From the NCBI GenBank assembly GCA_036867785.1, contig CP145422.1, forward strand, positions 496,001-560,000: DNA of 64,000 nt. Reading direction: 5' to 3'. This DNA is from Plasmodiophora brassicae (lineage: Eukaryota). The translations under genes were made by a program, and so were the position numbers. Positions 40,196-40,550 of the stretch are shown here, piece after piece; position 1 is the first letter of the stretch, and each line of letters opens with the position of its first letter. The notes beneath the pieces were generated by a model. That model had not been told where the DNA came from. It saw nothing but the letters and a program-made list of their open reading frames with translations, and searched no databases.

Positions 40196-40550
40196 TGTAG
40201 ACCGGACCGCCCAACTAGGCCACGAGAGCAGCTGCTCTCGTGGCCTAGTTGCTCTCGTGGCCTAGTTGGGCGGTCCGGTCTACAAAACATCTCACCGACG
40301 GGAGTTCGAGCCTCCCCGCACGCAGTCCGCAGTGGACGACGACGTTTTGGGGAGGATGTGTAGATACGTTACGTACGGATCCGCCGGTCACGAGAGTAGG
40401 TCTGCGAGTCGCTTGCAACGGTAGGCGGCGGACATCGCTCGATCATCGGGAGGCTTGAGCTTCTCCGGTGAGATGTTTTGTAGACCGGACCGCCCAACTA
40501 GGCCACGAGAGCAGCTGCTCTCGTGGCCTAGTTGGGCGGTCCGGTCTACA
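40196..40550. mobile_element. Non-autonomous element with palindromic termini, copy 1
   Basis: TGT...ACA ends. A 72-bp perfect palindrome at 40479-40550; the left palindrome carries a 17-bp tandem duplication. Homologous to 51095-51418 and flanked by ggc/ggc. Confidence 0.88.

What the first reader, a model, noticed from the sequence alone, without database searches (positions are those of the whole stretch)
40196..40550. Small mobile element whose two ends are each a ~72-bp palindrome
Seen: two copies (40196-40550 and 51095-51418) with the layout palindrome, ~190-bp core, palindrome. The palindrome TGTAGACCGGACCGCCCAACTAGGCCACGAGAGCAG|CTG... has no loop, and inverted symmetry continues ~30 bp inward (aaacatctcaccg / cggtgagatgttt). 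The termini are almost invariant between copies while the cores differ by many substitutions and indels. Established: TGT..ACA ends with 4-bp TSDs fit retroviral-like DDE integrases (Ginger transposons, LTR elements). Inference: an unusual MITE-like family whose ends are simultaneously direct and inverted repeats and can form hairpins.
Basis: partly seen in the sequence, partly recalled or inferred. Interest (0 to 1): 0.8.

Follow-up and report, generated by a model that had tools for sequence, protein, structure and literature searches.

The report
Hairpin-ended mini retroelement, probably self-priming
This is a real, multi-copy 320-350-base jumping element whose two ends are identical DNA palindromes; it looks like a miniature retrotransposon read by the tRNA-making polymerase whose RNA may fold back and start its own copying, an unusual variant of a known kind.

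Summary
The element is real: palindrome (P, 70-72 bp), core, palindrome, at 73 or more loci of a 25-Mb eukaryotic genome. Of 36 loci with both ends called, 30 have an exact 4-bp TSD, and 18 of those 30 are solo palindromes. Corrections: window copy 1 has only a 3-bp match and an 89-bp left P. No long coding copy was found. New here: a tRNA-type Pol III promoter (box A in P, box B in the core; 0 of 300 shuffles reach it) and a T4 run at the core/P border. There is no tRNA primer site and no polypurine tract. Instead the core's last 13 nt complement its first 13, so the predicted RNA's U-tail pairs flush with the LTR end and could prime copying of the arm. Chromodomain Ty3/gypsy families here share the TGTAG..CTACA ends and 4-bp TSD and are the likely helpers. 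Best reading: a TRIMp3/Helenus-like retroelement with palindromic LTRs; self-priming is inferred, not shown. A Ginger-like MITE is not excluded. The scan noted this family before on other contigs (e1-7152164, e1-7153829).

The parts
40196..40550 (+). Copy 1, whole element (older subfamily, about 83-85% identical to copy 2); flanks GGGC / GGCA, only 3 bp match
40196..40284 (.). Copy 1 left palindrome (LTR-like), 89 bp, with a 17-bp tandem duplication in the right arm (40233-40249 / 40250-40266)
40258..40269 (+). Pol III box A (TGGCCTAGTTGG) in the right arm of the left P
   Evidence: matrix built from this genome's tRNA genes
40285..40297 (+). x: 13 nt at the primer-site position; no TGG; reverse complement of x'
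40304..40312 (+). Pol III box B (GTTCGAGCC), identical to the T loop of this genome's tRNA-Lys(CTT) and tRNA-Asn genes, 46 nt after box A
40376..40399 (+). Decayed internal copy of a palindrome arm (weak here: 11 of 500 shuffles reach it)
40466..40479 (+). x' (40466-40478) at the PPT position plus the T4 run 40476-40479, candidate Pol III terminator and primer end
40479..40550 (.). Copy 1 right palindrome, perfect 72 bp
   Evidence: (I10)
51091..51094 (+). Left TSD ACAA of copy 2
51095..51418 (+). Copy 2, whole element (young subfamily), inserted near the 3' end of a TBC-like gene
51095..51165 (.). Copy 2 left palindrome, 71 bp, two arm asymmetries; box A at 51139-51150
51166..51347 (+). Copy 2 core: x 51166-51178, box B 51185-51193, inner T4 51221-51224, decayed arm copy 51240-51268 (0 of 500 shuffles), x' 51335-51347, border T4 51345-51348
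51348..51418 (.). Copy 2 right palindrome, identical to the left one in direct orientation
   Evidence: (D6)
51419..51422 (+). Right TSD ACAA of copy 2
44354..44357 (+). Related empty site: single ACAA in a paralogous stretch
   Evidence: (D5, D11)
49812..49815 (+). Related empty site: single ACAA in the neighbouring TBC-like paralog
   Evidence: (D5)

Best explanation
A non-autonomous, TRIM-like retroelement with palindromic LTRs, transcribed by RNA polymerase III and moved in trans by a chromodomain Ty3/gypsy reverse transcriptase and integrase. Shown: anatomy, TSDs, solo forms, promoter boxes, complementarity of the core ends, and gypsy families with matching ends. Inferred: (1) Pol III starts near the centre of the left P, using box A in its right arm and box B in the core, and stops in the T4 at the core/right-P border, giving an RNA of about 220 nt (arm + core + U-tail). 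(2) The U-tailed 3' end pairs with x, directly beside the arm, and primes reverse transcription, so the first DNA bases are the LTR start TGTAGA. (3) The copied arm folds back at the self-complementary centre, or pairs with a second nascent strand, and rebuilds a full palindrome; the same x/x' step at the other end rebuilds the second one. (4) The integrase inserts the product with a 4-bp TSD. Solo P arise by recombination between the two P, helped by breakage at palindrome centres.
For: TSD: 30 of 36 callable loci exact 4 bp, none 5 bp; 18 solo, 12 core-bearing. Promoter: box A + box B score 24.6 bits, shuffle maximum 14.0, 0 of 300; spacing 46 nt, within the 43-46 nt of 53 of 55 tRNA genes scored; + strand only. 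T4 is the first T run after 20 of 57 tRNA genes here. The 17-copy consensus fold pairs the 3' U-tail and x' with x, flush to the LTR end; 12 pairs vary on one side, all between Watson-Crick and G-U on the + strand. Core fold z -4.8 and -5.0 on +, -2.8 and -3.7 on -. No host primer found: no tRNA shares more than 10 nt with the element (50 sequences), and the 10 matches to x' away from known copies hold no tRNA or Rfam RNA. Only 7 of the last 15 nt before the right P are purines, against 11 of 15 in the gypsy. Arms are homogenised: 12 of 23 units uniform, some for derived variants; 5 more have the inner arms alike, as step 2 predicts. Inverted and direct multimers share one outer TSD (L003, L005/L012, L049). 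Helpers: four gypsy LTR types begin or end TGTAG/CTACA and give 4-bp TSD, while the four other types seen give 5 bp; RT, RNase H, integrase and chromodomain confirmed for one family. Two metatranscriptomes hold a contig of the core alone, with no flank cover (weak).
Against: No RNA start or end was observed; all runs were contigs. With the 5' arm included, the single-sequence best fold pairs that arm with the internal arm copy instead: the x:x' helix has probability 0.001 in copy 2 and 0.56 in copy 1, and costs 3.8 and 1.2 kcal/mol. No pair shows a two-sided compensatory change, and the structure was derived from these same sequences. A conserved inner T4 could stop Pol III early. Copy 2 shows a clean direct pattern (arms 1=3, 2=4), as an ordinary LTR cycle or two templates would give; 4 units lean direct and 1 is mixed. 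A common A/G arm variant usually sits on one arm only (11 of 12 palindromes that carry it), which strict fold-back copying does not predict. Similarity to the helper LTR is limited to the tip (9 of the first 10 nt). The tRNA set was incomplete (63 of 457 candidates scored). RNA contigs could come from DNA of a multi-copy repeat.
Confidence: 0.5

Rival explanations
1. Same class (Pol III-driven TRIM moved by the gypsy helper) but with an ordinary LTR cycle: the transcript reads through the T4 into the right P, the palindrome centre serves as R, and an unidentified RNA, or a fragment of the element's own x', primes both strands.
For: Copy 2 has identical direct LTRs including two asymmetries. 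T4 is a weak stop: 37 of 57 tRNA genes have 5 or more T in their first run. Solo LTRs and tandem arrays are usual in TRIMs (PMC10886601, PMC6934838).
Against: An ordinary cycle does not make the two arms of one LTR alike, and it predicts no units with inner arms alike (5 of 23). No tRNA-type primer site, no Tf1-type match of x inside P, and no PPT.
Confidence: 0.27
2. A DNA-only MITE (Ginger-like, or ends used directly by an integrase) with long TIRs made of P plus about 30 bp. The solo P is a mini-MITE, and arm identity comes from gene conversion or hairpin repair.
For: TGTNR ends and 4-bp TSD fit Ginger (PMC2836005 passages). The two termini are inverted repeats over 85 bp or more. Several units show an inverted arm pattern. 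A 27-bp collapsed solo palindrome also has a TSD.
Against: No long copy bounded by these arms among 152 matches at 73 loci. None of 30 TSDs is CCGG, CCGT or ACGG, and no AT-rich preference is seen. Cut-and-paste gives no reason for a strand-specific Pol III promoter or for G-U-only variation. Most listed integrase matches lie in long polyprotein frames.
Confidence: 0.2
3. Assembly or long-read chimera artefact.
For: Perfect palindromes are a known long-read artefact (recalled). Copy 1 lacks a clean TSD.
Against: 30 different exact TSDs, subfamily structure, empty paralogous sites, and contigs of another study holding a whole P and both copy-2 junctions.
Confidence: 0.01

Closest known systems
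Helenus / TRIMp3 (Kojima 2024, PMC10886601; parts 1, 2 and 4 of 6 and search passages read, supplements not seen)
   Same: Under 1 kb, non-coding, two identical terminal repeats, tRNA-type boxes A and B without a working cloverleaf, solo repeats and tandem arrays, 4-bp TSD in the gypsy-dependent families.
   Different: Helenus has the tRNA-like part inside the LTR and has a tRNA PBS and a PPT. Here the LTR is a 72-bp palindrome, box B lies in the core, and there is neither PBS nor PPT, only complementary core ends. The words 'palindrom' and 'inverted' do not occur in that paper's main text.
Cassandra and ordinary TRIMs, incl. biv-TRIM (PMC10886601 introduction; PMC6934838 passages)
   Same: Size, direct terminal repeats, solo and tandem forms. 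Cassandra uses Pol III; biv-TRIM lacks a clear PBS.
   Different: No palindromic LTR or end-to-end panhandle is described in the text I saw. Cassandra uses a 5S promoter and ends in the 3' LTR.
Tf1/sushi self-priming Ty3/gypsy elements (PMC7175516 passages)
   Same: No tRNA primer; the element's own RNA primes.
   Different: Tf1 uses the first 11 nt of the RNA after RNase H cleavage. Here x is complementary to the predicted 3' end, not to anything in P.
Self-priming Pol III or small RNAs: BC1, U3 (PMC3820591 and PMC4027162 passages; the BC1 paper seen only as a cited title)
   Same: A 3' end folds back and primes reverse transcription.
   Different: Those are SINE masters or pseudogene sources without LTRs or integrase-type ends.
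Ginger1 and Ginger2/TDD DNA transposons and their non-autonomous forms (PMC2836005 passages)
   Same: TGTNR ends, 4-bp TSD, TIRs of 40-270 bp.
   Different: Ginger has CCGG/CCGT or RTATAY target preference and an autonomous transposase copy; neither was found here.
Retrozymes (search listing and abstract starts only)
   Same: Small structured non-autonomous LTR elements.
   Different: No ribozyme match in Rfam here, only sub-threshold miRNA-hairpin hits.

Membership tests
TRIM | Under 1000 bp, no protein | tested here: met
   322-355 bp for single units; no coding frame of note
TRIM | Two direct terminal repeats, TG..CA, with TSD; solo repeats with TSD | tested here: met
   30 of 36 with exact 4-bp TSD, 18 of them solo
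TRIM | tRNA primer-binding site after the 5' LTR | tested here: not met
   No TGG at x; longest match of the element to any of 50 tRNA sequences is 10 nt and not at x; other x' matches hold no tRNA or Rfam RNA. The tRNA set was incomplete.
TRIM | Polypurine tract before the 3' LTR | tested here: not met
   7 of 15 purines, ending in TTT, against 11 of 15 in the gypsy
Helenus / TRIMp3 | tRNA-type boxes A and B | tested here: met
   24.6 bits, 0 of 300 shuffles
Helenus / TRIMp3 | tRNA-derived sequence contained within each LTR | tested here: not met
   Only box A is in P; box B is 20 nt into the core; ARAGORN finds no tRNA
Helenus / TRIMp3 | Transcription by Pol III | not testable with these tools
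   Only contigs were available; two RNA contigs cover the core alone
Tf1-type self-priming elements | PBS complementary to the first 11 nt of the transcript in the LTR | tested here: not met
   By reading the sequence, the complement of x occurs only at x', not in P
Ginger1 | TSD CCGG or CCGT/ACGG | tested here: not met
   0 of 30 (definition)
Ginger2/TDD | AT-rich RTATAY target preference | tested here: not met
   TSD bases are mixed; none is TATA
Ginger (non-autonomous) | Autonomous transposase copy with the same termini | tested here: inconclusive
   None among 152 exact arm matches; the 150 integrase matches were not all inspected, and diverged ends would be missed
Retrozyme | Hammerhead ribozyme in the LTR | tested here: not met
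   Rfam scan of copy 2
Any catalogued Repbase/Dfam family | Sequence match | not testable with these tools
   Neither library is available

The most novel reading that the evidence does not exclude
A retroelement that needs neither a host primer, nor a PPT, nor an R-mediated strand transfer. A roughly 220-nt Pol III RNA carries only half an LTR, uses its own oligo-U 3' end as primer, and rebuilds both LTRs as palindromes by fold-back. It thereby presents integrase-ready ends to a gypsy helper: a SINE-like RNA that hijacks an LTR integrase through a hairpin route.
Probability: 0.35. Interest if true: 0.8.

Novelty: new variant of a known kind. Interest (0 to 1): 0.58.

Why it matters
If the inferred route holds, it is a priming and LTR-building mechanism that I did not find described for integrase-dependent retroelements, and it is testable with one short in vitro RNA. 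It would extend Pol III-driven TRIMs to a design without PBS or PPT. Even on the plainer readings, the family seeds at least 73 loci with long palindromes; 37 of them had only one callable end, many broken near the palindrome centre. One copy interrupts a gene with a predicted secretion signal, so the family is a source of local rearrangement and of possible strain markers in what is probably a crop pathogen.

Tried and rejected
Autonomous parent with the same ends: the long continuations in L026 and L029 are gypsy pol genes into which the element inserted. Four loci with shared flanks (L054, L061, L068, L080) are one broken insertion inside a larger duplicated stretch, not an LTR tip. tRNA gene or known RNA family in the element: none. 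A recalled tRNA-Ser/Leu-type start matching x': 0 matches. Whole core as a decayed inverted dimer: beyond the 13-nt x/x', the match is not significant (24 and 106 of 500 shuffles); only the internal arm copy in copy 2 is (0 of 500). Covariation as proof of structure: no double changes, and the shuffle control is uninformative. Tf1-type self-priming in the candidate helper: longest complement 4 nt. Relatives outside this genome: 0 exact matches in metagenome contigs, which may leave out this genome's records. Old copies (L182, L043, L086) were too decayed to add covariation. Empty-site polymorphism at copy 2: no joint that skips the element in the 4 runs laid; contigs cannot show absence. Habitat labels of runs X19 and X20 were not interpreted. 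Five of 10 LTR-family stretches had no LTR pair within 8 kb and gave no TSD. Look-up of earlier findings by sequence returned nothing.

Full report
OBSERVATION. Copy 1 (40196-40550) has a perfect 72-bp right palindrome P (z -15.8), but its left P is 89 bp owing to a 17-bp duplication, and its flanks GGGC/GGCA match over 3 bp only. Copy 2 (51095-51418) has two 71-bp P with two arm asymmetries, identical to each other in direct orientation, and a clean ACAA TSD; two paralogous stretches in the window carry a single ACAA at that site. The inward symmetry is exact for 13 nt (x at the start of the core, x' at its end) and continues to about 30 nt with wobble-type mismatches.

CONTEXT. The window lies in a 25.28-Mb eukaryotic genome of 20 contigs. 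I take it to be a plasmodiophorid, probably Plasmodiophora brassicae. That is recalled from genome size and gene content and echoed by earlier scan notes; it was not tested.

CENSUS. A 16-nt arm pattern has 152 exact matches, control 0. All 152 lie in fetched loci and group into 73 insertion loci. Of 36 with both outer ends called, 30 have an exact 4-bp TSD (18 solo P, 12 core-bearing), none a 5-bp one; two of the 6 exceptions are miscalled inner ends. The other 37 loci had one callable end, many broken at or near the palindrome centre. More diverged copies exist outside this count, so 73 is a lower bound. No long coding copy is bounded by P; where coding sequence follows, the element sits inside a gypsy pol gene. 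Direct and inverted multimers share one outer TSD. In one, the two cores belong to different subfamilies (99% and 85% to copy 2), so two templates or a recombination were involved. In a DNA run of another study, one contig holds a whole P and two reach 30 nt into P from the copy-2 flanks, so this is not an artefact.

PROMOTER AND RNA. Matrices built from this genome's tRNA genes find box A in the right arm of P and box B 20 nt into the core, 46 nt apart, on the + strand only: 24.6 bits against a maximum of 14.0 in 300 dinucleotide shuffles of one P plus core. No cloverleaf or Rfam family is left. A T4 run lies at the core/right-P border, and T4 is the first run after 20 of 57 tRNA genes. The implied RNA runs from the P centre to that run. 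The consensus fold of 17 copies pairs its U-tail and x' with x, ending at the last base of the LTR. Twelve pairs vary on one side, all between Watson-Crick and G-U; none varies on both sides. The core folds better on + than on - relative to shuffles (z -4.8 and -5.0 against -2.8 and -3.7). Against this: with the 5' arm present, single sequences prefer to pair the arm with a decayed internal arm copy, and the x:x' helix has probability 0.001 (copy 2) or 0.56 (copy 1). A conserved inner T4 could also end transcription early. Two metatranscriptome runs each gave one contig covering only the core (51148-51318 and 51165-51317, no mismatch, no flank). This is a weak hint, since the runs were found with this sequence and DNA of a repeat could give the same picture.

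PRIMER AND PPT. x does not start with TGG. No tRNA among 50 sequences shares more than 10 nt with the element (the set is incomplete). The 10 matches to x' away from known copies hold no tRNA or Rfam RNA, and one proved to be an old copy. The 15 nt before the right P have 7 purines, against 11 in the gypsy helper candidate. The element therefore fails two defining TRIM features.

ARMS. Of 23 units scored at three recurrent sites, 12 are uniform (one flagged only by a parsing slip at a damaged end), several for derived variants, so arms are copied from each other. Five have the two inner arms alike and an outer arm different, four lean direct (copy 2 cleanly; three because arm 3 alone differs), one is mixed and one is uninformative. 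A plain LTR cycle predicts only the direct pattern, and plain cut-and-paste predicts no homogenisation. Fold-back priming with occasional use of two templates covers both, but gene conversion after insertion could too.

HELPER. An LTR family of about 190 bp that begins TGTAGAG and ends GACTACA gives 4-bp TSD in 5 of 6 same-strand LTR pairs (three rechecked) and encodes RT, RNase H, integrase and a chromodomain. Three further LTR pairs of this kind also give 4 bp, whereas two and the two families give 5 bp; 5 of the 10 stretches gave no pair. Which family is the helper is open.

MECHANISM. Shown: structure, TSD, solo forms, promoter boxes, core-end complementarity, matching gypsy ends. Inferred: Pol III transcription, priming by the RNA's own U-tail, fold-back rebuilding of P, integration by the gypsy integrase (0.5). 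Rivals: an ordinary LTR cycle with an unknown primer (0.27), a Ginger-like MITE (0.2), an artefact (0.01). The two RNA-based readings together come to about 0.77.

KNOWN SYSTEMS. The closest is Helenus/TRIMp3 (PMC10886601; parts 1, 2 and 4 of 6 and passages; supplements not seen, and they list many families that could include a palindromic one). It works like a TRIMp3 but is not filed as Helenus, because box B is outside the LTR and PBS and PPT are absent. Tf1 priming uses the RNA's 5' end (PMC7175516 passages). Priming from a folded 3' end is reported for BC1 and U3 (passages of PMC3820591 and PMC4027162), but not for LTR-type elements in what I read. Ginger shares ends and TSD length but not target preference (PMC2836005 passages). 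biv-TRIM lacks a clear PBS (PMC6934838 passages). Searches (listings and abstract starts only) showed no paper on this family or on wholly palindromic LTRs; the 15 hits were, by title, on LTR-LTR junctions, software or parvoviruses. The library lacks most subscription papers, and Repbase and Dfam could not be searched. Earlier scan notes found the same family on other contigs and read it as a MITE/TRIM curiosity. The few lines shown do not mention a Pol III promoter or U-tail priming. Other notes report Helenus-type and Tf1-type small elements in this genome, which I did not check.

VERDICT. A real, recently active family; a new variant of the Pol III-driven TRIM kind with a specific, cheaply testable priming hypothesis. 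Interest 0.58; 0.8 if the self-priming route (probability 0.35 in its full form) is confirmed.

Noticed in passing
L172 and relatives (G000:C19:522900-530300): In the candidate helper, a 9-nt stretch just before the PPT is complementary to LTR positions 29-37. The same CACGAG/CTCGTG pair forms the centre of P and the arm-to-internal-arm fold of the small element. Possible shared signal or origin of P; unexplained.
   Followed up: partly
L049:3331-5710 (G000:C3:146830-149209): A 2.38-kb composite with one outer TSD holds several P and cores in both orientations plus a captured gypsy 3' fragment and LTR-like piece; a telomere-like repeat pair sits beside one P at 4534-4547.
   Followed up: partly
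L031:660-686: A collapsed solo palindrome of 27 bp still flanked by a 4-bp TSD.
   Followed up: no
L025: This copy has six T instead of four at the core/P border, as a variable U-tail or plain slippage would give.
   Followed up: no
window 50241-51116: Copy 2 interrupts a gene with a hydrophobic N-terminus and a weak TBC match (E 6.5e-5, below the Pfam cut-off); a paralog at 48950-50002 is uninterrupted.
   Followed up: partly
window 36290-37870: 526-aa frame with a hydrophobic N-terminus, ankyrin repeats and a C-terminal chromodomain; the chromodomain may be retrotransposon-derived.
   Followed up: no
window 34805-34947 and 27081-27529: Two other inverted-repeat pairs (48 bp at 92%, 47 nt apart; 35 bp at 86%, 379 nt apart), possible small MITEs.
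   Followed up: no
window 40037-40102: 33-bp tandem duplication about 95 bp upstream of copy 1, next to a long G run.
   Followed up: no
window 44814-47202 and 55561-62905: Tandem paralog arrays: two membrane-protein-like genes about 1.44 kb apart and four secreted- or membrane-type genes about 1.8-2.6 kb apart.
   Followed up: no
L159 / L160 (G000:C12): A 5' and a 3' LTR of the helper family lie on opposite strands about 21 kb apart yet share the same 4-bp flank, as after an inversion.
   Followed up: no
L090:4148-4627: A solo P has itself been hit by another TG..CA insertion with a 5-bp duplication.
   Followed up: no
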